The notes under the pieces are model-generated. The model saw only the letters and a list, made by a program, of their open reading frames with translations, was not told where the DNA came from and made no database searches. 32,000 nucleotides of DNA. Source: Nitrosopumilus maritimus SCM1. GTDB lineage: Archaea > Thermoproteota > Nitrososphaeria > Nitrososphaerales > Nitrosopumilaceae. Shown in pieces: positions 4,487 through 31,999 of this stretch; the stretch's first letter is position 1, and the number at the start of each line of letters is the position of its first letter. The DNA is taken from assembly GCF_000018465.1 (NCBI RefSeq), contig NC_010085.1, positions 1,470,001 through 1,502,000 of the forward strand, read 5' to 3'. The translations under genes were made by a program, and so were the position numbers.

Positions 4487-4519
4487 CAAAATCATCTAAT
4501 AACTGACGTATAAAATGAT

Positions 4520-5245: not shown

Positions 5246-5308
5246 TTCTAATAATTAGATAGAATCTCATTATCTTTAATCTATTGCAAGATAAAGATGA
5301 ATTATTGA

Positions 5309-5452: not shown

Positions 5453-5510
5453 GCGTGAAAAGTATGATGTTTATAATATAACATTATGTGAGGAGTCCCA
5501 AAAATGGGAA

Positions 5511-5861: not shown

Positions 5862-5883
5862 AAATTGATAAAACAAATGTGTT

Positions 5884-5896
5884 CTTTATATTTTAG
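5884..5896. promoter_or_regulatory. Shared A/T-rich TATA-like element between divergent genes (bidirectional promoter, short or absent leaders)
   Basis: ctttatattttag lies about 20-25 nt from the ATG at 5914 (+) and about 25 nt from the ATG at 5861 (-). This spacing is typical of archaeal TATA-to-start distance for leaderless mRNAs. Confidence 0.4.
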
Positions 5897-5913
5897 ATCT
5901 CCAGATACCATAT

Positions 5914-7378: not shown

Positions 7379-7385
7379 TAAATGA

Positions 7386-14427: not shown

Positions 14428-16599
14428 TCAGACAACATATGGAGACTTGCACTTTGGACACTTATCTTCAAACGGTTCATCTTTAAAACCACACTCACCA
14501 CAGATTGCAATGTCTTGAACAGGCTTGAAGGATGTTGTAAGTTCTGATGTCTTCTCAATTGCTTTTTTAATTTCTGCAGGCTTTGCATCTTTGCCGATAT
14601 TTAGTGTTACAAACAATCCCCCGTTTAGCAACTTTGAGAGTTTGTTACACTCAGAGATTGGCTCGCTCTTGGCAGTATAATCAGAGACTTCAGAGGCATC
14701 AATAATGATTCCCTCAGAATAAGAATCACCTTCCATAGAGTTTAAGGATGAATTTTTGCCATATTTCTCACCATCAAGAGTAGCAAATCTGGTTGCACTT
14801 TCAGTTTCAGTCATGCAAATAGCCACAGGATCACCTAATTCTTTGCCTTTTTTGGCGCCAACGTCTACTGCAGTTTCAATTACCTTGTGAAGGATTTCAC
14901 GACCTTCTTTATTATCTTGGAATCCAAGGATGTTAAAGACTGCCTCTTTGAGGCCTACCAAATTGATTACAAGTGAAACATTACTTTTTTGCATATACTG
15001 AGTATTTTTGGCCAAAATTGGATTCAATCCGCGTCTAGTCAAATCAGAAATGTCTTTCTTTCTCAAGGCCATGGAAGATAAAGCTGGTTTCATGAGTAAT
15101 GCCAATCTTGCTCTAAAGTAAGTTTCATCTTTGTTTGATTCAAATGCTAATCTTGGAAGATTGATTGATACTGATTCAAGCATTATTGAAAGTGGACCAG
15201 AACTTTTAGTTGATCCATTAGTAATACCATGACTTGATGTTTGTCCTTTGGCAAACATTACTTTTCCACCAAGTGAAATTATTTCTGATACTGCTGCTGA
15301 AACATCTGTGATCTTTCCTTTTTCATTATCTATGATTAATCCAATTTTTGGAATTGGGGTAAGCTTTGTGTAGTTTTTGTATGCATTAATAATTGAATTA
15401 ATTATTTTTGTATCAGATCCTAATTGTAATCTAATTGAAACGTTAGTACTTGATTTATTGTATTTGGAAGTTGTAGATGCAGTTGCAAATGCTGTAGTTA
15501 ATTTTTGTTCTAGTTCTGGAAGTGATTTTGAATGTTTTGAGAATAGTGAAACAAATCCATCAAGTATAATTTCTTGTGAAGCTTCTTTTGAAAGAAGAGA
15601 GACTACAATAGACAGTGCACTTGTAATTTCATCAAGTTGTTTTGATGCAGGAATTCTTGAAACATCAAGATACTTTCCACCAAGATCAATTCCATCTTCA
15701 ATTAATTCTTTAATGTTAACAAACATTGTATCAGGAATCATTGACCAGATTCCAGGATTTGTAATGTGTAGATCACCAGAAAGATGAGAGTCAGCTACAT
15801 CTTTTGGTAAGATGTTTGTCAGAAGATGTTCAGCAAATACTGTTTGTCCTGTTTTAAACAAGAGACCTTCAGCGCCATTGTCTACATTGTCTAGATTAGT
15901 AATCATCTCTTGAACGTCAAACACAGGCAAGCCTAGGCGTGCAAGCTTGTTGCGGTATTCCTCATGACCATGCTCAAGCAAGACAGAGTTTACCATTTCC
16001 CTGATAAGTGAGCCTGTAAGATAGGTAGTTTGATATTTGTAGATTCTATTTTCAACTTCTTCAGTAATTTTTTGTGCTAATTCAAGTGGGAGGCTACCTT
16101 CACGTACCAATGATTGTATGATTTTGTGAGAATTAAATTCCTCAATTGATTCGTGTGATGTTCTAACATACATCTTTCCACTTTCAATAATTGATCTTTC
16201 TTCAATTTGTCTTGCTAAGCTCAAAACTAGTTTTCCAAGATTTGTAATTGTGTAACGTCTTTCAGATTTGTTTAATGCAACAAGTGATTGTCTAAGTAAT
16301 TTTCTCAAGTGGTATGCAAATTTTCCACTCTCTTTTTTTGATTTGAATCCAGCCAGAGATTTTAATTCTGAATAAGTTAGAGGGCCTTTTGAATTTAGAA
16401 TTCTCAGGATATCGATTCTGTTAGGACTTGCCATGACAGAAAAGATCATTCTGACACGTTTTGATGTAGATTGTAAAATTCCACCGCGTTTTGGTGAATC
16501 TGAATCATCATCTAAGTCTGTATCTAGATCATCGTCATCCATGTCTGCATCTAGATCACCTTCTAGATCCATTTCTAATTCTTCATCAGACATTTTCAT
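14428..16599 (-). CDS. Multidomain protein: acidic tail + ArsR-like wHTH + ATP-cone + class III RNR (NrdD)-like domain + C-terminal zinc ribbon; no glycyl-radical motif
   Basis: 723 aa. wHTH: NRIDILRILNSKGPLTYSELKSLAG...FAYHLRKLLRQSLV. ATP-cone: YVRTSHESIEEFNSHKIIQSLVREG...LIREMVNSVLLEHGHEEY. HLSGDLHITNPG resembles the NrdD G-x-IHIHD region. The C-terminus is CGECGF...CPKCKSPYVV-stop, with nothing resembling R-x-x-G-Y after the ribbon. Confidence 0.7.
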   Translation of the reverse strand: MKMSDEELEMDLEGDLDADMDDDDLDTDLDDDSDSPKRGGILQSTSKRVRMIFSVMASPNRIDILRILNSKGPLTYSELKSLAGFKSKKESGKFAYHLRKLLRQSLVALNKSERRYTITNLGKLVLSLARQIEERSIIESGKMYVRTSHESIEEFNSHKIIQSLVREGSLPLELAQKITEEVENRIYKYQTTYLTGSLIREMVNSVLLEHGHEEYRNKLARLGLPVFDVQEMITNLDNVDNGAEGLLFKTGQTVFAEHLLTNILPKDVADSHLSGDLHITNPGIWSMIPDTMFVNIKELIEDGIDLGGKYLDVSRIPASKQLDEITSALSIVVSLLSKEASQEIILDGFVSLFSKHSKSLPELEQKLTTAFATASTTSKYNKSSTNVSIRLQLGSDTKIINSIINAYKNYTKLTPIPKIGLIIDNEKGKITDVSAAVSEIISLGGKVMFAKGQTSSHGITNGSTKSSGPLSIMLESVSINLPRLAFESNKDETYFRARLALLMKPALSSMALRKKDISDLTRRGLNPILAKNTQYMQKSNVSLVINLVGLKEAVFNILGFQDNKEGREILHKVIETAVDVGAKKGKELGDPVAICMTETESATRFATLDGEKYGKNSSLNSMEGDSYSEGIIIDASEVSDYTAKSEPISECNKLSKLLNGGLFVTLNIGKDAKPAEIKKAIEKTSELTTSFKPVQDIAICGECGFKDEPFEDKCPKCKSPYVV

Positions 16600-20171: not shown

Positions 20172-20930
20172 TCAATAATCTGGTCTGTATCCGTATCGTG
20201 TACCATAAGTGTATTCAGAACTGTGTGTTTTTTTGTAGAGATAACCAGTTGCAAATCCTATTGCAAATCCTCCAATGTGTGCCATGTATGCAACACCACC
20301 ACCTGCAACACCAAAGCCACCTATGAAAAATGGTAAGAGATTTTGGAAGACCAACCAAAATGGCAAGAACCATCGTGCTTGAATATGCATCATTCTCCAA
20401 AAGAAACCCAACATAAGAAAAGTGGTAATTCTAACTCTAGGGAACATTGCCAAGTATGCGCCAAGTACTCCAGAAATTGCTCCTGATGCGCCAACTGCAG
20501 GAATAGAACTTGTAGGATCAATTACAATGTGGGCAAAACCCGCACCAACTCCCCATGCAAGATAAATTAAAAGAAATTTTGCTTTGCCAAATTTTAGTTC
20601 AATATTATCACCAAAGATCCACAAAAATAACATGTTACCACCCAAATGCATCAAACCTCCGTGCATAAACATAGAACTAAACAATGAAAAGTACGGAGTA
20701 TCAGGACAAGAAATTCCTGGTTGAATCATTGATGAGAAACCAGTAATACAACTAGGAACTGCTCCCCATTCAAAAAACATGAATGCAGCACTTTGATTAG
20801 AAAATTCCCAAAATTGACCAGTAACAGCTACTTCGTAGAAAAATATTACAACATTGAGTATGATTAATCCAATTGTAATTTTTGGTTTGAATCCTGGAGG
20901 ATGTGGGTTTTCATCTCTTAATGGTAACAT
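20172..20930 (-). CDS. Rhomboid-family intramembrane serine protease
   Basis: Polytopic. HGGLMHLGGNMLFLWIFG (the H-x4-H-x3-N region) and the catalytic GASGAISGVLGA, followed by AHIGGF, are rhomboid hallmarks. Confidence 0.9.
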   Translation of the reverse strand: MLPLRDENPHPPGFKPKITIGLIILNVVIFFYEVAVTGQFWEFSNQSAAFMFFEWGAVPSCITGFSSMIQPGISCPDTPYFSLFSSMFMHGGLMHLGGNMLFLWIFGDNIELKFGKAKFLLIYLAWGVGAGFAHIVIDPTSSIPAVGASGAISGVLGAYLAMFPRVRITTFLMLGFFWRMMHIQARWFLPFWLVFQNLLPFFIGGFGVAGGGVAYMAHIGGFAIGFATGYLYKKTHSSEYTYGTRYGYRPDY

Positions 20931-20970: not shown

Positions 20971-22524
20971 TCAATTTTGAATTTGTATTATTCCCTCTTT
21001 GATCAGAAATTGAATTCCTTGTACAAAGGCATCATCATCAATTGCACCTTCTGCCCACCACCCTGCATTGTTTTTAATCCATGCTGGAATTTCATTAGAA
21101 CCAGAATTTTCACCTGAAGATGTAGCAGGTATTAGTAGAACATTTTCTTTGATTAAAAATTGAATTCCTTGTACAAAGGCATCATCATCAATTGCACCTT
21201 CTGCCCACCAACCTGCATTGTTTTTAATCCATGCTGGAACAGTTTCAATTTCAGGCTCACTAGGATGAATTACTAGAATGAAATTACCTTTGGACAAAGA
21301 ATTTCCATCAATATTTGATAATACAAAATTTGCAGTTCCTACTTGATTTTCATTAAATTGTATTTTGTGTGAATTTGGCAATTCAGAATTTACATTTCCT
21401 ACCAAATGTTTTGAAAATATTTCAGAATTATTTTGAACTATTGATAAATCATATTCTACTATTTTCTTTGTTTTATCTGAAAAGATCTCTTCTAAACTAA
21501 GAAAGAATGTAACTTCTTTTCCAGATTTGATAACTTCAGGTTCCCATGACAAGAAAACTTTGTATCTTAAATCAGGAGTTGCGAATTCAAGAGGAAATTT
21601 CACCTCATCACTTGGTTGCAGTTCAAAAATTATCATATCATCAGAGTATTTTGAAGCATCATTACGAATTTGTTTTAGTAATTCTTGATTTAGAACAATG
21701 TGAATGGTTCTATCTTCAAATGAATAATCATCAATATTTACAGTATCATCAGGTAATGGAATGTCATTAACAATTGCTTGATATGTTGTAAAAAGAAAAT
21801 CTCCAAATGTGTTTGGAACTCTAAGCTCTTGATGAACCACACTTAGTTGTTCTAAATCTTGATTCCAATCAAAAGGCATAGAAATTGTTACTTTATTTGA
21901 ATCAAAATTAAATGAATCAAGTTTATCAAAATATGAAATAACTTGAATCGTTTGTTCATTATTTTGAGAATCTGATACTTGAAATGATTTTATTTCAGCT
22001 AGACTAATTGCTCCTTGTAGTTGTACTTCATCAGATAAAACATTGGAATCAGAATCAATAGATAGTATTTTGACATTATACTCATACAGGCCACCAGACA
22101 TGAAAATAGGACCCCGCATAATTAGAGATGATTCATTTTTTATCCAACCCCCTAGTACAGGCTCAATTTCTCCGTCTATAGTGATATTTTCAGAATTTTC
22201 AGTAATTACTTTGATTGATAGATATCCTAGTTCACCATGAAATATTTCTTTGAAAATTTGTTTGCCATCTTTTTTTAATTCAAATTCAAATGTAACATGT
22301 TCAATTATTGCATCAGTATTTGCATCAAACAATCGAAGTGAAATATATTTTTCAGATTCTTCAGGATCATATATTGAGGGAGAAATTGAAATTGAAAGCG
22401 ATGCATCTTTGTTTTCAATTTTAACTGGAGGCAAAACTTCTCCTCCTAATCCATGACCAAAAGCAAATGACGAACAAAGTGAAGATATTAAAAATGCAAA
22501 TAATATTGCGTTAAGAATTTTCAA
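20971..22524 (-). CDS. Secreted protein, paralogue family member A: signal peptide, beta-rich modules, two C-terminal aromatic 'WW-G-x-I-x-D' modules
   Basis: 517 aa. Signal peptide MKILNAILFAFLISSLCSSFAFG|HG. The C-terminus carries 2x PAWIKNNAGWWAEGAIDDDAFVQGIQFLIKE. The start codon is TTG (22522-22524); there is no nearby ATG. Confidence 0.8.
   Translation of the reverse strand: MKILNAILFAFLISSLCSSFAFGHGLGGEVLPPVKIENKDASLSISISPSIYDPEESEKYISLRLFDANTDAIIEHVTFEFELKKDGKQIFKEIFHGELGYLSIKVITENSENITIDGEIEPVLGGWIKNESSLIMRGPIFMSGGLYEYNVKILSIDSDSNVLSDEVQLQGAISLAEIKSFQVSDSQNNEQTIQVISYFDKLDSFNFDSNKVTISMPFDWNQDLEQLSVVHQELRVPNTFGDFLFTTYQAIVNDIPLPDDTVNIDDYSFEDRTIHIVLNQELLKQIRNDASKYSDDMIIFELQPSDEVKFPLEFATPDLRYKVFLSWEPEVIKSGKEVTFFLSLEEIFSDKTKKIVEYDLSIVQNNSEIFSKHLVGNVNSELPNSHKIQFNENQVGTANFVLSNIDGNSLSKGNFILVIHPSEPEIETVPAWIKNNAGWWAEGAIDDDAFVQGIQFLIKENVLLIPATSSGENSGSNEIPAWIKNNAGWWAEGAIDDDAFVQGIQFLIKEGIIQIQN
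21008..21242. repeat. 235-bp segment identical to 22707-22941 (copy A); contains an internal 83-bp unit twice (21007-21089, 21157-21239)
   Basis: Base-by-base comparison by eye at a constant offset of 1699 nt found no mismatch. The internal units differ at one position (21061 c vs 21211 a). Confidence 0.85.
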
Positions 22525-22567
22525 GATTTTTAAATTAGGAGAATCTGTTATAAAAAAATAATAGATG

Positions 22568-22605
22568 AGAAACTGGCAACCAAGATGACTCCTCCTAGTT
22601 TCTCA
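22568..22605 (-). terminator. Intergenic hairpin (8-bp stem GAGAAACT/AGTTTCTC, 22-nt loop) followed on the minus strand by a T-run; possible terminator or attenuator between paralogues B and A
   Basis: Stem arms at 22568-22575 and 22598-22605. On the minus strand the hairpin is followed by atctattattttttta, which merges into the TATA-like region of the downstream gene. Confidence 0.3.
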
Positions 22606-22675
22606 CCGACTATGGCCTGTAAGATGAGTTAATACAAAATAGATTAAAACATAATTGGTACATTCGTCGTATATA

Positions 22676-24547
22676 CTATACTTGTAAGATTCCATTTGTT
22701 ATCAAGAATTGAATTCCTTGTACAAAGGCATCATCATCAATTGCACCTTCTGCCCACCACCCTGCATTGTTTTTAATCCATGCTGGAATTTCATTAGAAC
22801 CAGAATTTTCACCTGAAGATGTAGCAGGTATTAGTAGAACATTTTCTTTGATTAAAAATTGAATTCCTTGTACAAAGGCATCATCATCAATTGCACCTTC
22901 TGCCCACCAACCTGCATTGTTTTTAATCCATGCTGGAACAGCAGGTTTTGTTTCTCCAACAGTTACTGATCCAATCATCCATGGGTGAAGAGTACAATAG
23001 TAGTCAAAAGTTCCATTTTCTTCAAATTTGAAGGAGAATTTTTCCCCTGCAGCCACAACCCCACTATCAAAGATACCAGAAGACCCTTCATCAGGAGTTC
23101 CAGATGTGACTGTATGAGCTGAACTGTCCTTGTTATCCCATAATACGATTTGATTAGGCTCAATAGTCAAACTAGCAGGAAGGTAACAAGAGTTATCTGT
23201 TTCACATCCGGGTAATGATGTTCCAATACCAATATCTACAAAATGATCACCAATCAATTCTTCTTTTGGTTCAGATACTTTGAATGAAAATTCTCCCGAA
23301 GTATCAAAGTTGTTTACATTTGAAATCCTTACAAGTGCCGCACCAACTTGATCAAAGTTTATTTTGACAGAATCAGTTCCGTCATGTGCTTCCAATCCCT
23401 GTTTTGATTCTATTATCCTACCATTAAGAAAAACATCTAGATCATAGACGTTTTGTTGAATAATTACATTAGAAATTGGATCATGGAATTCTATATGCAT
23501 TGTAACATCATTACCAGGATTAATTTTTCCTTTGGGTGTTAGAGATAAATGAAATTTCCAGTCTTCTTCAGAAGACAATTGAATTACTTTATCACCATTC
23601 TCTAATGAAGCATCACTTTTTTGAACATCTCTTAATTTGCCTGATTGAATGCCAAAGATCATTTTATCATTTAATTCAGGAGGATTTTCATCAATCATTT
23701 TCAATAATTTTTTTGATGAAAGTAAAAAGTGAACTACAATTTCCTCATTACCAGAACGATCAATTGTTCCAAAATAAGAAATATCATTTACAGTCAACAT
23801 TATATCATGATTTTCAAAAATATCTACTGTCTTTGGAATATAATATTCAGCATGAACAAAGGGAATTGATTCGATAAAGTCTTCATTCCAATCAAATAGC
23901 ATTTGTGCAGTAAGTTTTTTGTCTCTTTGATCATAGTGAAAGTTATCTATTTTATCAAAATATGTTGCAAACATCAAATCATGTGTTACATCATCAATGT
24001 CAATAGAAAATGGGATAAATTCTCCCATAGTAAACATAATTTGAAATGGTGTTTCAGTTTCAGATACGGGCTCATTTTCAATTGATAATAAGGTCATTTG
24101 AACATCAATTAGTCCCCCTTCCAAAAATAATGGAGCCTCAATAGTCAAAGGAGAATCATTTGAGGCTAGCCAGGCATCATTTTCTGCAGTTTCACCTGAA
24201 AAATTCACGTTAGAGCTAGGTATGATTAATGTTCGAAGTTTTTCATCAGGAGAATATGCATCAAATTCTACAATCAGATTTCCTTGTCCATCAAAGATCT
24301 CAACTTTATGTTCAACACCTAAAACTACTTGTCCAGTATCATCATTAATTGTTGTAATATCAAAAGTAACATGTTCTTCGTTTCCTTCTAAAATTGAAGG
24401 ACTTGTTTCTAATTGTACTTTGAAATAATTTTGGTTGATAAAAATAATATCACTTTCCTCACTACCAGAACCTCCACCATATGCGATTTGTGTTGATCCA
24501 AAAATCAAAAGTAGATAGAGAGCTCCAAGAAATAACTTATGATTCAT
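22676..24547 (-). CDS. Secreted protein, paralogue B: signal peptide, beta-rich modules, type-1 copper (cupredoxin/plastocyanin-like) domain, two C-terminal aromatic modules
   Basis: Signal peptide MNHKLFLGALYLLLIFGSTQIAYG (ATG at 24545-24547; the track start 24556 is TTG). Cupredoxin ligand pattern: SSAHTVTSG ... FDYYCTLHPWMIGSVTV (His, Cys, His, Met). The C-terminal 2x PAWIKNNAGWWAEGAIDDDAFVQGIQFLI is identical to paralogue A. Confidence 0.85.
   Translation of the reverse strand: MNHKLFLGALYLLLIFGSTQIAYGGGSGSEESDIIFINQNYFKVQLETSPSILEGNEEHVTFDITTINDDTGQVVLGVEHKVEIFDGQGNLIVEFDAYSPDEKLRTLIIPSSNVNFSGETAENDAWLASNDSPLTIEAPLFLEGGLIDVQMTLLSIENEPVSETETPFQIMFTMGEFIPFSIDIDDVTHDLMFATYFDKIDNFHYDQRDKKLTAQMLFDWNEDFIESIPFVHAEYYIPKTVDIFENHDIMLTVNDISYFGTIDRSGNEEIVVHFLLSSKKLLKMIDENPPELNDKMIFGIQSGKLRDVQKSDASLENGDKVIQLSSEEDWKFHLSLTPKGKINPGNDVTMHIEFHDPISNVIIQQNVYDLDVFLNGRIIESKQGLEAHDGTDSVKINFDQVGAALVRISNVNNFDTSGEFSFKVSEPKEELIGDHFVDIGIGTSLPGCETDNSCYLPASLTIEPNQIVLWDNKDSSAHTVTSGTPDEGSSGIFDSGVVAAGEKFSFKFEENGTFDYYCTLHPWMIGSVTVGETKPAVPAWIKNNAGWWAEGAIDDDAFVQGIQFLIKENVLLIPATSSGENSGSNEIPAWIKNNAGWWAEGAIDDDAFVQGIQFLITNGILQV
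22707..22941. repeat. 235-bp segment identical to 21008-21242 (copy B); internal 83-bp units at 22707-22788 and 22856-22938
   Basis: Same comparison as for copy A. The flanks diverge immediately outside the block. Confidence 0.85.
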
Positions 24548-24590
24548 GTCAATCAAAATGTTGTAAATTATTTTAAGTTAACAAAAATTC

Positions 24591-26402
24591 TCAGACTTTG
24601 ATTAATCCAGATGCCATCAAGAATTTGATTCCATTTGCAAATTCTACATCAGTAAGATGACCTTCAGACCACCAACCTGCATTATTTCTTACCCACATTG
24701 GAATTGATGTTATGTTTACATCTTCATCAACAATTTCTTCTGCAGCAGATACACTAATGATATTTTCTTGAACTAGATACTCAATACCTTTTGCAAAGTC
24801 TGGATCATTGATTTGTCCATCAGACCACCACATTGCATTCTTCTTTACCCAATCCGGAATTGCAATGTCAGTTGAAACAGAAGTTATTGTAGGTTTTGAC
24901 ATATCAATGTCACTTGAAACCGGAGTTACTGTAGGTCTAGGTGTTTCAACAAATATCTCTGAATCATCTGAAACCATATGAACGCCAGTATCAAGAACTA
25001 ATGCTCTTGCAACTATTTCCATACTATCAGCAGTAGTGTATGGTCGTGGTAATGTAATGTCTTCATATTCAATGTAAATTGTATCACCATTTGTAACTCT
25101 CAATCTATTTTGCTCTTGAGAAGAATCTCCAGTGGTCATAAAGAACTCGCCTGGAAGATAATTGATATAGTGAGGATGTTCATATCCTACAAAGTAATTA
25201 GGAGTACTTCCAACTTCAAAGGAACCATGTCTAGGTACAACTTCTTCTAAAATTGCTTCAGGTGCAACTTGGAATGAGAAATTTACTTCTTGACCAGGTT
25301 GATCAAAGATGTTAGAAACTACAATTTTAGCAGAGCCTCTCTCATCAAAGCGAATTGGTTCTACACCTTGTCCGTCTACCCAATATTGATCATTTCTTGA
25401 TTCAATTAATTCACCGTTAAGATAGATATCCATATCATAAGACAATCCCATCTCGTGGATGTCAGTTAAGCCATCATGAACCATTAAGTTAAAGTCATAA
25501 TCTTGATCAACACCAATTACACCACCTGGTTCAGTCCAGAGATATGTTTTCCATTCTCCATCAGGAGTGTATTTTGTTAATGAGCTTGCAGCTGGTTCAC
25601 TCAAGTGACGATCATATACTGCATTCTGAATTTTTGCATGATCCATATCTTTTACAAATTGAACACCAACAAATATTCCTGCTTTATCTGAATCTGAATA
25701 TACTTTAACATAATTTGTGAAAAATTCTCGGTGGTGCTTCCACAAGTCGGTATCACGTATGAAAAATGTGACTTTTTCATTTACATCATAGGTATCTTTG
25801 TGGAATTCAGCTTGTCCCATTTGCCAAGTATAATATGCAGTTTTGTAAACATGTTGATCTTCATTATATTCCCAGTCAACTGTTAATCTACCATCTTGTG
25901 TAGATGTTGCAATCATTACAGCCCTATCATGTGCTGAAATATTCATTCCATCTGGATCCATAGTCATTCCAGGTGTTTTAACAGTAGTAAGAAATGTATC
26001 ATGAACAGTATAACGCATTGCACCTGTCAATTTTACAACTCCCATGAATATGCCAGTATCAGGGCCAGTTTCTGTAAACTCAACGCCATTTACACGGTTG
26101 GCATCAGTGTAGACATCAATTGGATTTGATGTGGTACCAATTTGTTCAATTTTATCATCATCCTCGTTCCATCCTGGAGCATAAATCAAGACGTTTACTC
26201 TATCAGTCCAGCCAATTCCTTCATATCTTTCATTACAATCTTGTAGTTTGAAAGTTTCATTTGCACAGAATTTCATTATAATTCCTGCTGATTTTTGTAC
26301 ATTTGTAAAACCAGTATCAGCTAAGACTGGGGATATTGTAATTGTAGATGTTAAAATTACCATAAATGCGAAAATTGCAATTGTTCCCATACTTTTTGCC
26401 AT
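24591..26402 (-). CDS. Secreted protein, paralogue C: signal peptide, large beta-rich region, two diverged C-terminal aromatic modules
   Basis: Likely start MAKSMGTIAIFAFMVILTSTITISPVLA|D (ATG 26400-26402; the track start 26462 adds 20 aa before the signal peptide). C-terminal modules are IPDWVKKNAMWWSDGQINDPDFAKGIEYLV and IPMWVRNNAGWWSEGHLTDVEFANGIKFLM. The segment YDMDIYLNGELIES...AKIVVSNI...FSFQV is related to segments in paralogues A and B. Confidence 0.8.
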   Translation of the reverse strand: MAKSMGTIAIFAFMVILTSTITISPVLADTGFTNVQKSAGIIMKFCANETFKLQDCNERYEGIGWTDRVNVLIYAPGWNEDDDKIEQIGTTSNPIDVYTDANRVNGVEFTETGPDTGIFMGVVKLTGAMRYTVHDTFLTTVKTPGMTMDPDGMNISAHDRAVMIATSTQDGRLTVDWEYNEDQHVYKTAYYTWQMGQAEFHKDTYDVNEKVTFFIRDTDLWKHHREFFTNYVKVYSDSDKAGIFVGVQFVKDMDHAKIQNAVYDRHLSEPAASSLTKYTPDGEWKTYLWTEPGGVIGVDQDYDFNLMVHDGLTDIHEMGLSYDMDIYLNGELIESRNDQYWVDGQGVEPIRFDERGSAKIVVSNIFDQPGQEVNFSFQVAPEAILEEVVPRHGSFEVGSTPNYFVGYEHPHYINYLPGEFFMTTGDSSQEQNRLRVTNGDTIYIEYEDITLPRPYTTADSMEIVARALVLDTGVHMVSDDSEIFVETPRPTVTPVSSDIDMSKPTITSVSTDIAIPDWVKKNAMWWSDGQINDPDFAKGIEYLVQENIISVSAAEEIVDEDVNITSIPMWVRNNAGWWSEGHLTDVEFANGIKFLMASGLIKV

Positions 26403-26470
26403 ATGAAATCTAAAACATTGTTTTGAATATAATGGGAATGGTTCATTCGATAAATGTACCATTAGATCTA

Positions 26471-27802
26471 TTATTTGACCTCAACGTGACAGGAATGGAA
26501 ATGTTCACTCCATTTTGAATGACCTACAAATCTTTTTGACTCAAATTCTTGCAGGTCAGTAAATGTAGTACTAGTTTTACCAACTGTGTTTCCCTTGGCA
26601 TCCAAAAAAGATATTGAGAGTTCGACTTGAGGTCGCTTTAGATGATCATTATGATATTGACCAGAAATTGTTACTAGTCCAAAATCATCACGTATACATG
26701 AAAAATTTTCTACACCTTGAATTGCAGATTTTTCTGGTTCAATAGATTTCGGTACAGTTTGAATTGGATTAGAAGAGTCTTGGGAAATATTTTCTTGAAT
26801 ATCTTTTTGTAAAATATGATGTAATTGAGAACTCATGTGATCATTATTGAAATACGCAATTTTTTTTAGAATTTCACTCATAAATCTAGTTGTAGGCTCG
26901 GTTTCATCTAAGATTAGATCAGAGACATCATAATTGTAGTGTTCATTATGTTGATCAAATATGATAACATGTATTATGAAATTTTCATAAATGCATGATG
27001 TTAATCCACCCTTTGAAGTATAGTTAAACAAACATTCAGAATTTTCATTTGGGTTTCCACTAAGATATGCAGATTCGAATACTTTGTCTTTATTTTCAAA
27101 AGAATTCCAATAGTCATCTAAATCATTTTTGTTGTTAAATTCAATTATTTGCATTGTTAATGTAGGTACTTTGAATTTGTAAAAAATTGGTTCGTATACT
27201 CTAGTAATGTCATTGAAAATAATTTTGACAGAATCTACAACACCTTCTTTTTCTTCAAATTCATATTCAGTTGAAAATGTTCTCCACTTTGTCTCTTTTG
27301 TAATATTCAAAATTTCTTTATCATTTAACAAATATTTTTCAAGACTTGATTGGAATGTTTCATCATTTGAAAAGATACTTTGCTCGGGGTTGTATTCTAG
27401 ATACCCAACTTCTCTCAAGTAATGAATTGTTCTAAGAAATTGTAAATCACTTATTTTTCCATCAATCCACCATTCTGCTCTATCTTTAACCCAATATGGA
27501 ATTAATTCTAAAGTCTTTTCTTCGTATAATTCGGGAATATCTTGAATTACAGTTTTTGCAGTATTGATTAGAATTTCTTGTGATTTTATTTCATCAGGTA
27601 TGATATTTTTATCAAGAATGTTTTGAATTAGTGCTAAAAATTCAGAATCAGACATTTGCCCATCTATCCAGATAGAAGTAGTCTGTCTTACCCAATCAGG
27701 GAATATGCTAGGCTCAGAATCATCTCCAAAAACAGGATTTTGGAGTGAAATTACAAGTAAGAGGACAGTGATTGCAAATAATGAACTGATTTTTAGATTC
27801 AT
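26471..27802 (-). CDS. Secreted protein, paralogue D: signal peptide followed by two N-terminal aromatic modules, then an unrelated C-terminal region
   Basis: ATG at 27800-27802 (MNLKISSLFAITVLLLVISLQNPVFG) shares one nt with the upstream TGA (27802-27804). Modules: FPDWVRQTTSIWIDGQMSDSEFLALIQNIL and IPYWVKDRAEWWIDGKISDLQFLRTIHYL. Confidence 0.8.
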   Translation of the reverse strand: MNLKISSLFAITVLLLVISLQNPVFGDDSEPSIFPDWVRQTTSIWIDGQMSDSEFLALIQNILDKNIIPDEIKSQEILINTAKTVIQDIPELYEEKTLELIPYWVKDRAEWWIDGKISDLQFLRTIHYLREVGYLEYNPEQSIFSNDETFQSSLEKYLLNDKEILNITKETKWRTFSTEYEFEEKEGVVDSVKIIFNDITRVYEPIFYKFKVPTLTMQIIEFNNKNDLDDYWNSFENKDKVFESAYLSGNPNENSECLFNYTSKGGLTSCIYENFIIHVIIFDQHNEHYNYDVSDLILDETEPTTRFMSEILKKIAYFNNDHMSSQLHHILQKDIQENISQDSSNPIQTVPKSIEPEKSAIQGVENFSCIRDDFGLVTISGQYHNDHLKRPQVELSISFLDAKGNTVGKTSTTFTDLQEFESKRFVGHSKWSEHFHSCHVEVK

Positions 27803-29169
27803 CAAGTAGAAACCTCCTTTGAGAATTGTGATAGTGCATCTCCAAAGTCAGCATCACTGGAATCATACTTTGCATACTCTACACTTCCACAAAGTAACAG
27901 CCAACCTCTTACCTTGCCAAATGCATCTGATTTTGATTCATCAAGCACACTTAGTAACTCTTGGTTTGTCATTTCTTTGTAAATTTCCATATTTTGTGAA
28001 TAATAGTATCGAATTGCCTGACTGAGTGTTTCAAATGCTTCTTTTCTTTGATTATTATCAAACAAATTCTGAGATTTGTTTATCATTTGTTGAGTTAATT
28101 CTCTAAAGTCAGTTTGAGGCTTTGACACTTGCAATAGTGGTTCTTCATACTTTCTTTCTGATAATTTCTTGCGCAATAGATATCCAAATACTGCTAATGC
28201 AACAAATACTGGAATAATCAAGAGTAGTGAAATATTTTCAAAGCTTTGTGTAGGTGCAGTTACTTGGAACGGATTACTCTGTAATGAATCACGTATGTGT
28301 CTTGTATTTTCGAACTTTGGTTTTTCAAATTTGAAATTATCAAATATGTTTTCTGGTTCACTTGTAGGTGCAGAAACAGCTATACCAGTATCAGGTAATT
28401 TACCAGGTGGAAGCTGTTCACCAGACAATATACCATCAAATAGTTGCAGAGTCTGTTCAGAGAATGCATCATTCATTCTTTCTTGAATTTGTTCTTTAGT
28501 TAGTAAGAGATAGTTTGGAGAGTATTCCCTTAGATCAAACTCACCCTCACCACTAAACGTAGCATCTTCCATCATTTGTCTACCAAGTGTGAATTCTTTA
28601 GGAGTAAAGATGTCGTTTGGAATTGCTGCTAAATTATCCATACTGTATCCACGTTCAAGCACAAAAAGCTCCAAGTTTGAGTTTGGATTATAATCAAATG
28701 CCTGACCTTTTATCAAATATCTACTATCTCCAATAGGATCAAGCAAAGCTTCTGCAATTTCGACATAGCCATCAGAAAATCGGTCATAATATTTTATTTT
28801 ATGTTTAAAACTTTCTTGTCTAAGATCTCGTTGTTCAATTAGCATTCCATTTAGAATTTGACCTTCTTCTGAATCAATTGTAATTTTATAATCTCCAATA
28901 GAGTAGTTGTTACCTGTAATGAATTTATCATAAATTGGTTTTACAGATTCTGTATTTTCTACTACCAATTCTTCATAGCTGGAAACTATTTCAGCTTCTT
29001 GCGTTGTAACATGTTCTTTTTCAAGTTGCCCTTCAATTAACCAATCCATTTGAATTTCGGTAGATTCTGCAAATGCAGGATTCACAGCTATGAGAGGTAA
29101 TAACAAAAAGATTCCAATAATTTTTTTGCTAAAAAGTAAAGAGTTATGCGACAATTCTATACCTGCCAT
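27802..29169 (-). CDS. Type I membrane protein: signal peptide, ~290-aa extracytoplasmic domain, one TM helix, ~120-aa cytoplasmic helical tail (DUF4129-like by eye)
   Basis: Signal peptide IIGIFLLLPLIAVNPAFA|E. TM helix ISLLLIIPVFVALAVFGYLL followed by RKK. The tail AIRYYYSQ...MTNQELLSVL...CGSVEYAKYDSS resembles the DUF4129 pattern seen next to MoxR/DUF58 genes. It overlaps the vWA gene by 26 nt. Confidence 0.75.
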   Translation of the reverse strand: MAGIELSHNSLLFSKKIIGIFLLLPLIAVNPAFAESTEIQMDWLIEGQLEKEHVTTQEAEIVSSYEELVVENTESVKPIYDKFITGNNYSIGDYKITIDSEEGQILNGMLIEQRDLRQESFKHKIKYYDRFSDGYVEIAEALLDPIGDSRYLIKGQAFDYNPNSNLELFVLERGYSMDNLAAIPNDIFTPKEFTLGRQMMEDATFSGEGEFDLREYSPNYLLLTKEQIQERMNDAFSEQTLQLFDGILSGEQLPPGKLPDTGIAVSAPTSEPENIFDNFKFEKPKFENTRHIRDSLQSNPFQVTAPTQSFENISLLLIIPVFVALAVFGYLLRKKLSERKYEEPLLQVSKPQTDFRELTQQMINKSQNLFDNNQRKEAFETLSQAIRYYYSQNMEIYKEMTNQELLSVLDESKSDAFGKVRGWLLLCGSVEYAKYDSSDADFGDALSQFSKEVST

Positions 29170-30094
29170 AAATTATGTAAGCATCAATTAGCAATAATCC
29201 AATTGCAGCAGCTATAAACCAATCTCTTATTGTAGAATATTCAATTTCATAAGCAAGATTAGAGCTAAGATTAACAAAAATTTCATTTAATGTTTGCTCA
29301 TCAAGTGATTTGTAGTAATTTCCAGAGGTTTGTTGTGCAATAATTACAAGTGTTTCTTCATCTAATTCTGCATATTGTGGTTCGCCATAGATATCATCTC
29401 TTAGAAAAACAGGTTCAATTGAACCTAATCCAATTGTATGAATTTGGACATTGTTGATTTTTGCATACTCTGTTGCTTCTTCTGGTGTTACTAATCCGGA
29501 ATTATGTACTCCGTCACTCAGTAAGATCACTACACCTTTCTTGTCAGGAATTGATGAAGCCATATCTACTCCAAGTGCAAGTCCATCTCCAATGGCAGTA
29601 GCACCCAATCCTTGTTCTATTGATGAAATTGCATTAACTGATTTTTCTTTATCAGGTGTAAGGTAAGAAACAGTTGTTGCACCTGACTCAAAGAGAACAA
29701 CTCCCACATTATGCTGAGGTCCCATTTTTAGAATCAGATTATTTATGGCGTTTTTTGCAGCATCCAGACGTGTTGGCTCATAATCTGTGGCTGCCATACT
29801 TTCAGAACCATCTAAAACTATGCTCAAATTGATGCCATTTTCAACTGATAGTGTTGGGATTTGAGGATTTGCAAGTCCAATAATTGCCAATCCGAGAATC
29901 CCCATCATCAAGACAAATGGCAAATGTTTTCGCAGAAAGTTTTTGCCCATTACAGATTTTTTTACAATTTTTAGTGAGCTAAATTTCATGATAGAATCTT
30001 TTTTCTCAGAATTGTATTTTGAATAAAGAACATACAATCCAGGAATTATCAAAAGCAAAAATAATGCATAAAGATATTCAAAATGAATTTCCAT
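29144..30094 (-). CDS. Membrane-anchored von Willebrand factor A domain protein (BatA-like)
   Basis: Two N-terminal TM helices and one C-terminal TM helix. vWA MIDAS motif VLDGSESM (D-x-S-x-S), then LLSDGVHN. The gene directly abuts DUF58 (stop at 30095-30097, ATG at 30092-30094). Confidence 0.85.
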   Translation of the reverse strand: MEIHFEYLYALFLLLIIPGLYVLYSKYNSEKKDSIMKFSSLKIVKKSVMGKNFLRKHLPFVLMMGILGLAIIGLANPQIPTLSVENGINLSIVLDGSESMAATDYEPTRLDAAKNAINNLILKMGPQHNVGVVLFESGATTVSYLTPDKEKSVNAISSIEQGLGATAIGDGLALGVDMASSIPDKKGVVILLSDGVHNSGLVTPEEATEYAKINNVQIHTIGLGSIEPVFLRDDIYGEPQYAELDEETLVIIAQQTSGNYYKSLDEQTLNEIFVNLSSNLAYEIEYSTIRDWFIAAAIGLLLIDAYIIYGRYRIVA

Positions 30095-30967
30095 CTATTT
30101 TCTCCTCCGAGTATGAATATAGCGATTAAATGTAACATCAAAGGGTTCCTCATTTGAAAGATTCAAAAAATCAACTCCCAGTTTTTTCATTTCATATTCA
30201 ATTTCTTCTCTAGTCTTCTTAATAAGATTAGAATACTCTTCTTGGAATTTTTTATCAGAAGTGTTTACCAGTATTTGTTCTCCAGATTCTGCATCCTCTA
30301 GATATACATGACCAATTTCAGGAATCTCTGTTTCACGAATATCAGAAATATTTACTAAAACAATTTGATGTTTTAATTTTAGATATTGCAATGGCTTTAC
30401 GAATGAATCTGACATAAAATCTGAAACAACAAAAACAACACTTCGACGTTTTAGATTTTTTTGTAATTCTGATAATGATCTAAAGATATCTGTTTGTGTA
30501 CTTTGAGGAGTGTATTCTAATAATTTTTTTAAAATTTCCATCATGTGTTTTTTGCCTTTTTTTGCAGGAACAAATTTTTCCAATGAATCTGTAAAAAGAC
30601 CCAATCCAACTCTGTCATTGTTCTTTAGTGCAGAAAACATCAGAGAAGCTGTTATCTCAAATCCAAGTTCTTTTTTACTCTTTACAAAACCAAAGTCATT
30701 ACTTGCAGACATGTCCATTACAACATAGACGTTAAGCTCTTTTTCTTCGACAAACTCTTTTACAAAAAGATCATTGTATCTAGCTGAAACATTCCAATCC
30801 ACTCTTCTGGCATCATCACCAGCTGCATACTCTCTAACCTCAGAGAACTCAATTCCTCCACCTCTAAATCTGGACCTGTAGGCACCAGATTCCATGCCTT
30901 CGACTAGATTTTTGGTCTTGATATCCAGGTTTTTTACCTGCTTCAAGAGTTCTGTGAGTTCAGTCAT
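30095..30967 (-). CDS. DUF58 family protein (degenerate vWA-like, MoxR partner)
   Basis: GGGIEFSEVREYAAGDDARRVDWNVSAR and YVVMDMSASN are the DUF58 signature. It sits 9 nt downstream of moxR. Confidence 0.85.
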   Translation of the reverse strand: MTELTELLKQVKNLDIKTKNLVEGMESGAYRSRFRGGGIEFSEVREYAAGDDARRVDWNVSARYNDLFVKEFVEEKELNVYVVMDMSASNDFGFVKSKKELGFEITASLMFSALKNNDRVGLGLFTDSLEKFVPAKKGKKHMMEILKKLLEYTPQSTQTDIFRSLSELQKNLKRRSVVFVVSDFMSDSFVKPLQYLKLKHQIVLVNISDIRETEIPEIGHVYLEDAESGEQILVNTSDKKFQEEYSNLIKKTREEIEYEMKKLGVDFLNLSNEEPFDVTFNRYIHTRRRK

Positions 30968-30976
30968 GGCCTAAAC

Positions 30977-31999
30977 CTAAGGCGGATTGATTTTTTCTAA
31001 AACAAAGTCAATTACCTTATCAGAGGTAATTCCGTTTGCTTCTGCCTCAAATGTCAAAATTATTCTATGTCTGAGAACTTCGTGTGCAACAGCTTTGACA
31101 TCTTCTGGAATAATGAAGCCCCTTCCATTAAGCATGGCATTTGCTTTTGCAGTTCTCATTAACCAAATTGATGCTCTAGGAGATGCTCCAAACTCTATCA
31201 TATTTTCTAAATCTAGATCATAGTCTTTTGGAGTTCGTGTTGCATTTACAATATCTGCGATATATTCTGTAACTACTTTATCAGCATAAATTTTTTCATT
31301 GAATTTTTGAATTTCTAAAATTTCTTCAGGACTGATAATTGTATTTACTTTATCTTCTTGTTCAGATGAATTTTTTTCAATAATCTCGAGTTCTTCTTGT
31401 TTTGAAGGATAATCAATTAAAATTTTCAGAGCAAATCTATCAACTTGTGCTTCAGGAAGTTTGTATGTTCCCTCGTTTTCAATTGGGTTTTGTGTTGCAA
31501 GAACTAGGAATGGTTTTTTTAATTCAAATGTGTCTCCGTGTATGCTGACATTTCTTTCTTGCATTGCTTCAAGTAATGCTGATTGGACTTTGGGTGGTGC
31601 ACGATTAATCTCATCAGCAAGCACAAAATTATGAAATATCGGACCCTTTTGTGTTACAAATGATCCTGAGGCATTCTTGTAAATTTTTGTTCCTAAAATA
31701 TCTGCTGGAAGTAAATCGGGTGTAAATTGAATTCTAACATGATCAACATTGAAAATTTGTGCCATTGTCTTTACCATCAATGTCTTTGCTAAACCAGGAA
31801 CACTCTCTAAGAGTACATGGCCATCAGCTATTATTGAAATGAGAATTTTCTGTAAAGCGTCTTGTTGTCCAATCACAACTTTATGAGATTCTTCAAAAAC
31901 TGCATTTAGTTTCTTTGCATACTTTTGAGCTTGCTCACTTAGCTTTTTGATATCTTCATTTGATACCGAATAGTTTACGTGATTCTCTCTCAGTGCCAT
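30977..31999 (-). CDS. MoxR-family AAA+ ATPase (AAA_3)
   Basis: 340 aa. VVIGQQDALQKILISIIADGHVLLESVPGLAKT (Walker A), VLADEINRAPPKVQSALLEAMQE (Walker B / sensor region) and ATQNPIENEGTYKLPEAQVDRF. ATG at 31997-31999, 1 nt from the window edge, so an upstream start cannot be excluded. Confidence 0.92.
   Translation of the reverse strand: MALRENHVNYSVSNEDIKKLSEQAQKYAKKLNAVFEESHKVVIGQQDALQKILISIIADGHVLLESVPGLAKTLMVKTMAQIFNVDHVRIQFTPDLLPADILGTKIYKNASGSFVTQKGPIFHNFVLADEINRAPPKVQSALLEAMQERNVSIHGDTFELKKPFLVLATQNPIENEGTYKLPEAQVDRFALKILIDYPSKQEELEIIEKNSSEQEDKVNTIISPEEILEIQKFNEKIYADKVVTEYIADIVNATRTPKDYDLDLENMIEFGASPRASIWLMRTAKANAMLNGRGFIIPEDVKAVAHEVLRHRIILTFEAEANGITSDKVIDFVLEKINPP

What the first reader, a model, noticed from the sequence alone, without database searches (positions are those of the whole stretch)
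20974..27706. Unrecognised ~35-aa aromatic module in tandem pairs (8 copies in 4 secreted proteins), with dockerin/EF-hand-like spacing
Seen: the modules lie at 20974-21240, 22679-22939 and 24594-24860 (C-terminal pairs) and at 27392-27706 (N-terminal pair, right after the signal peptide). Consensus by eye: P-x-W-[IV]-[KR]-x-x-A-x-W-W-x-[DE]-G-x-[ILM]-x-D-x-[DE]-F-x-x-[GA]-I-x-[FY]-L. There are always two copies, 50-67 aa apart, at either protein terminus, which suggests an autonomous targeting, anchoring or interaction module. I do not recognise it as a named domain. Inference: the segment [DE]-G-x-I-[NSTD]-D-x-[DE]-F-x3-I-x-[FY]-L has the same spacing as the second half of a dockerin F-hand (D-G-x-V-N-x-x-D-L-x3-L-x-Y-L). 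Dockerins also occur as tandem duplicated segments. The module could therefore be a dockerin-like assembly tag, or alternatively an S-layer or cell-envelope anchor.
Basis: partly seen in the sequence, partly recalled or inferred. Interest (0 to 1): 0.75.

Follow-up and report, generated by a model that had tools for sequence, protein, structure and literature searches.

The report
Unnamed tryptophan-rich tag on archaeal exported proteins
Four neighbouring exported proteins of the ammonia-oxidising archaeon Nitrosopumilus maritimus carry a small, unnamed two-repeat helical domain that occurs in thousands of proteins of this lineage and most likely holds otherwise soluble exported proteins at the cell envelope; it is not a dockerin or an EF-hand.

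Summary
There are eight 37-aa modules in four adjacent minus-strand genes of N. maritimus SCM1 (Nmar_1636 and Nmar_1638 matched exactly). Each is significant against a profile built from other organisms (7e-11 to 1.5e-23), and there are none elsewhere in the window.

The module belongs to a large unnamed family: 5,642 clusters at 50% identity. Named hits are all Nitrosopumilaceae or Nitrosotalea. It has no Pfam, NCBIfam or PDB sequence match and I found no paper on it.

Of 277 proteins, 252 carry exactly two copies about 50 aa apart, mostly at the extreme C-terminus or just after the signal peptide. AlphaFold2 gives a confident four-helix domain (pLDDT 88) with no Foldseek match in the PDB.

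The dockerin/EF-hand reading fails. Loop positions 1 and 3 are G/K and W (99%), and they lie inside a helix.

The carriers have signal peptides (121/123), no other membrane segment (0/123), and more than 60 unrelated passenger families. In several passenger families the pair is replaced at the same position by a PEFG-CTERM membrane-anchor signal, and the two never occur together.

My best reading (about 0.5) is a non-covalent envelope-retention module. Its binding partner is unknown.

The parts
20971..22524 (-). P1 = Nmar_1636 (ABX13532.1), 517 aa. Signal peptide, beta-sandwich passenger, C-terminal module pair.
   Evidence: ORF. Exact match to the N. maritimus SCM1 protein. AlphaFold2 full-length model pLDDT 87.9.
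21127..21240 (-). P1 module 1 (residues 429-466)
   Evidence: (i-E 1.1e-21)
20977..21090 (-). P1 module 2 (residues 479-516)
   Evidence: (i-E 1.5e-23)
22676..24556 (-). P2 (by position Nmar_1637), 626 aa. A paralogue of P1 with an inserted cupredoxin domain and a C-terminal module pair.
22958..23194 (-). Cupredoxin (plastocyanin-type) domain of P2, residues 455-533. Contains C-x2-H-x3-M.
   Evidence: Pfam PF00127, E 2.9e-7, above the curated cutoff. Sequence.
22826..22939 (-). P2 module 1 (residues 540-577)
   Evidence: (i-E 1.4e-21)
22679..22789 (-). P2 module 2 (residues 590-626)
   Evidence: (i-E 4.5e-23)
24591..26462 (-). P3 = Nmar_1638 (ABX13534.1), 623 aa. Signal peptide (probably starting at Met21), beta-rich passenger that shares one beta-sandwich with P1 and P2, and a C-terminal module pair.
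24747..24860 (-). P3 module 1 (residues 535-572)
   Evidence: (i-E 5.2e-21)
24594..24704 (-). P3 module 2 (residues 587-623)
   Evidence: (i-E 1.1e-18)
26471..27805 (-). P4 (by position Nmar_1639), 444 aa. Signal peptide, N-terminal module pair with a long 29-aa linker, unknown middle region, C-terminal FxLYD domain.
   Evidence: NCBIfam NF038353, 24.0 bits against a cutoff of 23.
27590..27703 (-). P4 module 1 (residues 35-72), the most divergent copy
   Evidence: (i-E 7e-11)
27389..27502 (-). P4 module 2 (residues 102-139)
   Evidence: (i-E 5e-13)
20983..21242 (.). 260-nt DNA repeat, 97% identical to 22682-22941 (the 3' ends of P1 and P2). It contains two of the four 88-nt repeats that are 97-100% identical. 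This is a gene-conversion or recent-duplication tract limited to the module region.
   Evidence: The P1 and P2 passengers are only 28% identical at the protein level.
22682..22941 (.). Second copy of the 260-nt DNA repeat

Best explanation
Each 37-aa module is a helix, short loop, helix repeat. Two modules joined by a 12-13-aa Ser/Thr/Pro-rich linker fold back on each other into one small, acidic, tryptophan-rich four-helix domain of about 87 aa.

This domain is a lineage-specific, portable localisation tag of Nitrosopumilales. It is attached through flexible linkers to either end of Sec-exported proteins that are otherwise soluble. I propose that it holds them non-covalently at the cell envelope, meaning the membrane surface, the S-layer underside or another pseudoperiplasmic receptor. 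It would do for these proteins what a PEFG-CTERM membrane-anchor signal does for their paralogues.

Shown here: the domain exists and its predicted fold is confident, it is modular, it occurs on exported proteins without other anchors, and it is interchangeable and mutually exclusive with PEFG-CTERM.

Inferred, not shown: that it binds an envelope component at all, and which one.
For: (1) Autonomous fold. AlphaFold2 on the isolated pair with a 71-sequence alignment gives pLDDT 88 and pTM 0.77, with helices 5-15, 21-33, 55-65 and 71-83. The same helices appear at pLDDT 86-89 in full-length P1, separated from the passenger by lower-confidence linkers.

(2) Modularity. 252 of 277 family members have exactly two copies 48-51 aa apart, most at the very C-terminus or just after the signal peptide. 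Ninety-three long members carry 64 different Pfam passenger families, including M10, S8, thermopsin and C11 peptidases, PsbP, MG2, NHL, deacetylase, PEBP and amine oxidase.

(3) Exported and otherwise unanchored. 121 of 123 complete module-bearing ORFs have an N-terminal hydrophobic signal-like segment, and none of the 123 has a further TM-like segment.

(4) Replacement by a known anchor signal. Among the 120 closest homologues of the P1 passenger, 51 end in two modules, 8 in one module, and 57 instead end in PEFx + TM helix + basic tail directly after the same last beta-strand. N. maritimus Nmar_1676 is such a paralogue and passes the curated PEFG-CTERM model TIGR04296 (31.8 bits against a cutoff of 25). 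In 80 related loci plus the window, 18 module-bearing ORFs from about four further passenger families, including the P2 cupredoxin, have PEFx-tailed homologues. None of the 131 module-bearing ORFs has both devices.

(5) An ABC-transporter phosphonate-binding protein, encoded next to its ATPase and permease genes, has a signal peptide followed by the module pair at its N-terminus (L081). In cells without an outer membrane such binding proteins normally need a tether (established knowledge).

(6) Polar positions K6, N7, N8, D19 and Q27 are 67-92% conserved across unrelated carriers. This fits a shared ligand.

(7) All 80 best genomic loci are from Nitrosopumilaceae, and Nitrosotalea also has the module. 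This fits a lineage-specific envelope ligand.
Against: - There is no binding or localisation data. I found no paper on the motif or on Nmar_1636-1639.
- No partner has been identified.
- The tight S-layer of N. maritimus might retain large exported proteins without any tag.
- The domain is acidic (mean net charge -5.6). Simple electrostatic binding to the S-layer pores, which are lined with negatively charged residues (PMC11153153), is therefore unlikely.
- Some proteins have 3-6 modules or internal pairs, so a terminal position is not obligatory.
- Interchange with PEFG-CTERM shows that the two are alternatives. It does not show that they do the same job: the pair could mark proteins for release or for a different compartment.
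Confidence: 0.5

Rival explanations
1. Dockerin-like assembly tag. The pair binds a cohesin-like module on a scaffold protein and gathers exoenzymes into a complex.
For: Tandem duplicated segment at a protein terminus on many different enzymes. The spacing G-x-I-x-D-x-x-F resembles the second half of an F-hand loop.
Against: Ca-ligand positions 1 and 3 are G/K and W and lie inside helix A. Each repeat has two helices, not a loop plus one helix. No dockerin or EF-hand family is among the Pfam families matched by two or more of 71 pairs at E<=10. Foldseek against the PDB finds no dockerin. hhalign against two dockerins gives 0.1-7% probability, although the dockerin/EF-hand control reached only 13%. 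No cohesin candidate is known.
Confidence: 0.1
2. Homotypic association domain. Pairs on different exported proteins bind each other and oligomerise or network the carriers.
For: The two copies share one consensus and are pseudo-symmetric. Proteins with 3 or 5 modules exist, which leaves one module unpaired within the chain. The pairs of adjacent P1 and P2 are kept identical by gene conversion.
Against: AlphaFold2 satisfies the pair within one chain with high confidence. An association domain does not explain why PEFG-CTERM replaces it, or why it sits on a transporter binding protein. Modules follow their host protein across species rather than becoming uniform within a genome: the P3 pair is 42% identical to the P1 pair, while fragments of P3-type proteins from other assemblies are 66-80% identical to the P3 pair.
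Confidence: 0.12
3. Glycan-binding or exopolysaccharide-binding module, like a carbohydrate-binding module. It would target S-layer N-glycans or another polysaccharide. This is a special case of envelope retention if the glycan is on the cell.
For: Tryptophan content is 6.7%, with six Trp in 87 aa. On the helical wheel the Trp residues of helix A span more than half the circumference, so some may be exposed. Asn and Gln residues are conserved. The N. maritimus S-layer protein carries 17 glycans per monomer (PMC11153153).
Against: All-helical carbohydrate-binding modules are unusual (established knowledge). The S-layer glycans project away from the cell, whereas large carriers are expected beneath the S-layer. 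There is no similarity to any carbohydrate-binding family.
Confidence: 0.12
4. Secretion or sorting signal read by a dedicated machine, analogous to the T9SS C-terminal domain or a sortase signal, rather than a binding domain.
For: It is terminal, lineage-specific, and an alternative to the PEFG-CTERM sorting signal.
Against: It works at either terminus and internally. It is a confidently folded domain with no TM segment. All carriers already have Sec-type signal peptides.
Confidence: 0.05
5. Calcium-binding EF-hand-type pair acting as a sensor or a stabiliser.
For: Four helices in two helix-loop-helix units. Acidic residues at loop positions 5, 9 and 12. Weak, non-significant match to calerythrin (E 0.17).
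Against: The loop has about 5 residues, not 12. Positions 1 and 3 cannot act as ligands. No EF-hand hit from Foldseek or Pfam.
Confidence: 0.03

Closest known systems
PEFG-CTERM sorting domain (TIGR04296) of Thaumarchaeota
   Same: Same lineage, same kinds of exported carriers, and the same position directly after the last passenger domain. The two are interchangeable between paralogues such as Nmar_1636 (pair) and Nmar_1676 (PEFG-CTERM), and they never occur together.
   Different: PEFG-CTERM is a short motif plus a TM helix plus a basic tail, presumed to be processed and anchored in the membrane (PMC6593220). The pair is a soluble, folded 87-aa helical domain with no TM segment, and it can also sit at the N-terminus.
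Type I dockerin (Pfam PF00404)
   Same: Tandem duplicated segment of similar total size at the terminus of many different exoenzymes. Partial spacing match (G, I/V, hydrophobic residue). Portable tag logic.
   Different: No Ca-binding loop, two helices per repeat, no sequence or fold match, no known cohesin partner, archaeal lineage-specific family.
S-layer homology (SLH) domain (Pfam PF00395)
   Same: Helix-loop-helix repeats of 40-55 aa in tandem at the termini of exported proteins, acting as non-covalent envelope anchors. There is a weak local resemblance, I-x-x-L-x-x-x-G-I-I: 12 of 71 pairs hit the SLH model, and hhalign aligns 14 columns.
   Different: The hits are far below significance (best E 0.026, hhalign probability 6-7%). 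The module comes in two copies rather than three. It lacks the TRAE motif (sequence). SLH ligands are bacterial pyruvylated cell-wall polymers, which archaea lack (established knowledge).
EF-hand pair
   Same: Two helix-loop-helix units forming a four-helix domain. The G-x-I spacing is followed by an acidic residue and then an aromatic one.
   Different: The loop has about 5 residues instead of 12. Ligand positions 1 and 3 are G/K and W. No fold or HMM match.

Membership tests
Dockerin (PF00404) | Two 12-residue Ca-binding loops D-x-[DN]-x-[DN]-G-x-[IV]-[DN]-x-x-D | tested here: not met
   In 563 modules the aligned positions are: position 1 G61%/K15%, position 3 W99%, position 5 D/E 74%, position 9 D/S/T/G/N, position 12 D/S/E/T/A. 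The invariant Asp is at position 10.
Dockerin (PF00404) | Match to the family HMM | tested here: not met
   No Dockerin_1 hit on the four proteins at E<=1. At E<=10 it is not among the families matched by two or more of 71 pairs.
Dockerin (PF00404) | Dockerin fold: loop-helix repeated twice, three helices in total | tested here: not met
Dockerin (PF00404) | Cognate cohesin partner encoded in the genome | not testable with these tools
   The whole N. maritimus genome could not be scanned. No cohesin domain turned up in the window ORFs scanned against Pfam.
EF-hand | 12-residue loop with ligands at positions 1, 3, 5, 7, 9 and 12 between two helices | tested here: not met
   The calerythrin match is not significant (E 0.17).
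SLH domain (PF00395) | HMM match above the curated threshold, and the TRAE motif | tested here: not met
   Best E 0.026 in 12 of 71 pairs. hhalign probability 6-7% over 14 columns. No TRAE motif in the consensus.
PEFG-CTERM (TIGR04296) | PEFG-like motif, then a TM helix, then a basic tail at the C-terminus | tested here: not met
   None of the 131 module-bearing ORFs has it, and the four window proteins give no hit. Paralogues without the pair do have it.
Peptidase (the database label on these proteins) | A recognisable peptidase domain or an HExxH-type active site | tested here: not met
   No peptidase family in Pfam or NCBIfam for P1-P4. No HExxH motif. The P1 fold matches only generic strings of Ig/MG beta-sandwich domains.
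Unnamed Nitrosopumilales W-rich tandem helix-loop-helix domain (this family) | 37-aa module I-P-x-W-[IV]-K-N-N-A-G-W-W..G-x-I-x-D-x-x-F..G-I-Q-[YF]-L in a tandem pair, on a protein with a signal peptide | tested here: met
   All eight window copies score 7e-11 to 1.5e-23 against the external profile. All four carriers have signal-like N-termini.

The most novel reading that the evidence does not exclude
The pair is the recognition handle of an undescribed surface-organisation system specific to ammonia-oxidising archaea. A single conserved receptor in the pseudoperiplasm (the S-layer inner face, a SlaB-like stalk, or a lineage-specific glycolipid) would dock hundreds of different exported proteins, including copper proteins, proteases and transporter binding proteins. 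This would make it a non-covalent counterpart of archaeosortase/PEFG-CTERM anchoring, with a fold not seen in solved structures.
Probability: 0.3. Interest if true: 0.75.

Novelty: new variant of a known kind. Interest (0 to 1): 0.55.

Why it matters
Marine ammonia-oxidising archaea are among the most abundant microbes on Earth, and their key chemistry takes place in the thin space between the membrane and the S-layer. How proteins are positioned there is essentially unknown.

This tag marks a large share of their exported proteome: 5,642 clusters at 50% identity. It has no Pfam or NCBIfam model. In public records many of its carriers are labelled 'peptidase', which nothing tested here supports for P1-P4.

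Defining the tag has three uses.
- It corrects annotation.
- It gives a simple sequence marker for one class of envelope proteins.
- It makes a concrete experiment possible: use the isolated 87-aa domain as bait to find what it binds.

It could also serve as a display or retention tag in organisms that are otherwise hard to manipulate genetically.

Tried and rejected
- Profile searches of PDB sequences with the single-module and pair profiles gave only chance-level hits: calerythrin at E 0.17 and eL39 at E 0.84.
- I ran hhalign against small dockerin, SLH and calmodulin alignments. All probabilities were below 8%, but the dockerin/EF-hand positive control reached only 13%. The test is underpowered and I treat it as inconclusive.
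- Pfam hits of the pair at relaxed thresholds (Dioxygenase_N in 22 of 71, HTH_52, SLH, F-93_WHD) are all below the curated thresholds. I judged them shared chance similarity among homologous queries. NCBIfam gave nothing consistent.
- Literature searches for the motif strings, for Nmar_1636-1639, for Nitrosopumilus plus dockerin/cohesin, and for COG5549 found nothing relevant. The supplements of two N. maritimus papers do not mention these genes.
- My recollection that the 'peptidase' label spreads from a COG of module-bearing metalloproteases could not be verified. It remains a guess.
The binding-protein argument rests on one metagenomic example.
- The idea that the repeat is a DNA-level element rather than a protein domain was rejected. 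The P3 and P4 copies, and thousands of homologues, conserve the protein sequence but not the DNA.
Full report
**What is in the window**

Positions 20971-27805 hold four consecutive minus-strand ORFs:
- P1, 20971-22524, 517 aa
- P2, 22676-24556, 626 aa
- P3, 24591-26462, 623 aa
- P4, 26471-27805, 444 aa

Exact-sequence look-up identifies P1 as ABX13532.1 and P3 as Nmar_1638 of Nitrosopumilus maritimus SCM1. The genes are therefore Nmar_1636-1639; the numbers for P2 and P4 are inferred from position.

All four proteins begin with a signal-peptide-like segment. The gene order on the minus strand is MoxR ATPase, DUF58, BatA-type vWA protein, P5, P4, P3, P2, P1, rhomboid protease.

**Checking the observation**

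I built a profile from 563 distinct modules of other organisms and ran it against all window ORFs. The eight copies score independent E-values from 7e-11 to 1.5e-23, and the next best ORF scores 0.23. Start-to-start spacing is 50, 50, 52 and 67 aa.

The copies are not all independent. The two copies in P1 and the two in P2 are 97-100% identical over 88 nt. The 3' ends of P1 and P2 share a 260-nt tract at 97% identity, of which about 235 nt are identical. The rest of these two paralogues is only 28% identical at the protein level. This points to gene conversion, or a very recent duplication, limited to the module region.

**How large the family is**

- An exhaustive HMM search of 1.84 billion representative proteins finds 5,642 clusters at E<=1e-3 and 3,479 at E<=1e-10.
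- A word-indexed search with a pair profile finds at least 3,674 clusters at 90% identity.
- Source names are 'hypothetical protein' or 'peptidase' from Nitrosopumilus, Nitrosopumilaceae or Thaumarchaeota.
Nitrosotalea also has the module.
- No Pfam or NCBIfam model matches the module, in the full proteins or in 71 isolated pairs at relaxed thresholds.
- Profile searches of PDB sequences give only chance-level hits.
- No paper in the library contains the motif or the four locus tags.

**Anatomy of the module and the pair**

The consensus from 563 modules is I-P-x-W-[IV]-K-N-N-A-G-W-W-[AS]-[DE]-G-x-I-x-D-x-x-F-V-x-G-I-Q-[YF]-L-[IV]-x-x-G-I-[IM]-x-[VI].

Of 277 family members, 252 have exactly two copies 48-51 aa apart, 19 have three to six, and 6 have a single detected copy. 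Most pairs end within two residues of the C-terminus or start 20-37 residues from the N-terminus. Two giant proteins have internal pairs roughly every 500 aa. The linker between the copies is 12-13 aa long and rich in S, T, P, G, E and Q.

The two copies share one consensus. Copies within one protein are more alike (69% identity) than copies from different proteins (59%), and 24% of proteins have copies that are at least 80% identical. This indicates repeated homogenisation within genes.

AlphaFold2 on the P1 pair with a 71-sequence alignment gives pLDDT 88 and pTM 0.77. It predicts four helices (5-15, 21-33, 55-65, 71-83), so each module is a helix, a loop of about 5 residues, and a second helix. 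The same helices appear in the full-length P1 model at pLDDT 86-89, set off from the passenger by lower-confidence linkers. Foldseek of the pair against the PDB gives nothing better than E=7.5 and TM 0.27. The domain is acidic (mean net charge -5.6) and 6.7% tryptophan.

**The dockerin/EF-hand idea**

If the conserved Gly is set to EF-loop position 6, the positions read as follows:

| EF-loop position | Residue in the module |
|---|---|
| 1 | G or K |
| 3 | W (99%) |
| 5 | D/E |
| 8 | I |
| 9 | D/S/T/G/N |
| 10 | the near-invariant Asp (not a ligand position) |
| 12 | D/S/E/T/A |
| 13 | F |

Residues at positions 1-4 belong to helix A in the model, so there is no 12-residue loop. A dockerin repeat is a loop plus one helix, whereas this repeat has two helices (established knowledge).

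Among the Pfam families matched by two or more of 71 pairs at E<=10, none is a dockerin or EF-hand family. The PDB fold search finds none either. hhalign against verified dockerin, SLH and calmodulin sequences gave probabilities below 8%. That test was underpowered, because the dockerin/EF-hand control reached only 13%. Membership in the dockerin or EF-hand families is not supported.

**What the context says about function**

The carriers are exported and otherwise unanchored. 121 of 123 complete module-bearing ORFs in 80 loci plus the window have an N-terminal hydrophobic segment. The same crude test scores 166 of 362 background ORFs positive. None of the 123 has a further TM-like segment.

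The passengers are very diverse. Ninety-three long members carry 64 Pfam families, among them M10, S8, thermopsin and C11 peptidases, PsbP, MG2, NHL, polysaccharide deacetylase, PEBP and amine oxidase. In the window, P2 carries a plastocyanin-type cupredoxin.

Module-bearing genes cluster. Thirty-one of 81 loci, counting the window, have two to four of them within about 12 kb.

The most informative result came from searching the P1 passenger alone. Its 120 closest homologues sort as follows:

| C-terminal ending | Number of homologues |
|---|---|
| Two modules | 51 |
| One module | 8 |
| PEFx + TM helix + basic tail, directly after the same last beta-strand | 57 |
| Truncated | 4 |

One PEFx-tailed protein is Nmar_1676 from the same genome. 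It passes the curated PEFG-CTERM model TIGR04296 at 31.8 bits against a cutoff of 25. In the loci set, 18 module-bearing ORFs from about four further passenger families have PEFx-tailed homologues. These include the P2 cupredoxin, which is 56% identical to its PEFx-tailed counterpart. None of the 131 module-bearing ORFs has both devices. PEFG-CTERM is regarded as a membrane-anchoring sorting signal (PMC6593220). The pair and a membrane anchor are therefore mutually exclusive alternatives at the same position.

One further example points the same way. On a metagenomic contig, an ABC-transporter phosphonate-binding protein encoded next to its ATPase and permease genes has a signal peptide followed by the pair. 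Such binding proteins normally need a tether in cells without an outer membrane (established knowledge).

**Interpretation**

I conclude that the pair is an autonomous, portable localisation domain. The most likely function is non-covalent retention of exported soluble proteins at the envelope. My confidence is about 0.5 for the retention function and much higher for 'modular exported-protein tag'. The ligand is unknown.

Rivals that remain open:
- a protein scaffold partner (the dockerin-like logic without homology)
- homotypic association between pairs
- glycan binding
- a sorting signal
- Ca2+ binding (the least likely)

Arguments against my reading:
- There is no experimental localisation data.
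- The tight S-layer may make a tether unnecessary.
- The domain is acidic, and the S-layer pores are lined with negatively charged residues (PMC11153153).
- Odd-numbered and internal arrays of modules exist.

**The passengers**

P1 folds confidently (pLDDT 87.9) into a string of beta-sandwich domains. These match only generic Ig/MG-domain proteins such as integrin, complement and alpha-2-macroglobulin, at TM<=0.21. None of P1-P4 has a peptidase family hit or an HExxH motif. The 'peptidase' and 'secreted Zn-dependent protease' labels in public records are therefore unsupported for these proteins. They probably spread through the shared module from genuine module-bearing proteases; this is inference. 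P1, P2 and P3 share the beta-sandwich that precedes the pair.

**Novelty and limits**

The family is abundant in databases but, as far as these tools show, it is unnamed, uncharacterised and without a solved or recognisably similar structure. It is a new family doing a familiar kind of job, a terminal targeting module on exoproteins, in a lineage where envelope organisation matters for global nitrogen cycling.

Limits of this work:
- The taxonomic range beyond the best hits, and the copy number per genome, were not measured.
- No partner search was possible.

Noticed in passing
window 20983-21242 and 22682-22941: The 3' ends of the adjacent paralogues P1 and P2 share a 260-nt tract at 97% identity (about 235 nt identical), while their passengers are only 28% identical at the protein level. 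Within each gene the two module copies are also 97-100% identical over 88 nt. This looks like gene conversion limited to the module region.
   Followed up: partly
window 22440-22455 (P1 residues 24-29) and alignment A7: The P1/Nmar_1676 family has a nearly invariant G-H-G-L-G-G-E directly at the predicted signal-peptide cleavage site, so the mature N-terminus may be a histidine. Further histidines are invariant or nearly so (H76, H96, H231, H275). This hints at a metal, possibly copper, site in a family that also acquired a cupredoxin in P2. An AA10 LPMO appears among the weak fold hits (rank 23).
   Followed up: no
window 20971-26462; public records: P1, its orthologues and P3 are labelled 'peptidase' or 'secreted periplasmic Zn-dependent protease' in NCBI and UniRef. 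They have no peptidase domain, no HExxH motif, and an Ig/MG-like beta-sandwich fold. This is probably annotation spread through the shared C-terminal module.
   Followed up: partly
window 20172-20930 (-): A rhomboid-family intramembrane protease gene (PF01694, E 3e-32) lies about 40 nt downstream of P1 on the same strand. Whether it has any link to processing of the neighbouring exported proteins is unknown.
   Followed up: no
window 27802-31999 (-): MoxR AAA+ ATPase (30977-31999), DUF58 (30095-30967), BatA-type vWA protein (29144-30094) and an uncharacterised signal-peptide/TM protein P5 (27802-29169) lie directly upstream. The P5 stop overlaps the P4 start by 4 nt, so P4 may be co-transcribed with a Bat/MoxR-type cluster.
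   Followed up: partly
L081 (IMGVR_UViG_3300006340_000718) 3980-6357: A contig classed as viral carries tail-fibre-like ORFs next to a cellular ABC transporter operon. Its phosphonate-binding protein has a signal peptide plus an N-terminal module pair. The contig may be a chimera, or a virus carrying host genes.
   Followed up: partly
L082 (IMGVR_UViG_3300022670_001029) 76-783 and 6795-8318: A second 'viral' contig encodes a cupredoxin-fragment/HYR-domain protein ending in a module pair. Nearby is a 507-aa ORF with a long S-Q-I-[GRD] tetrapeptide repeat array.
   Followed up: no
proteins P0295, P0296, P0302, P0307, P0309, P0311: Several metagenomic orthologues of P1 (458-469 aa) have only one module. 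The two copies are often near-identical at the DNA level, so these may be short-read assembly collapses rather than true single-module proteins.
   Followed up: no
window 24894-25151 (P3 residues 438-523): Weak match (E 1.3e-4, 19 bits, far below the cutoff of 1400) to the Kustd1514 anammox S-layer glycoprotein family. It probably reflects a shared beta-sandwich domain.
   Followed up: no
window 14428-16599 (-): A 723-aa ORF combines an HTH domain, an ATP-cone and a partial NrdD-like (anaerobic ribonucleotide reductase) region. It sits next to an 884-aa ribonucleotide reductase large-subunit gene at 11570-14224. This is an unusual architecture in an aerobic ammonia oxidiser.
   Followed up: no
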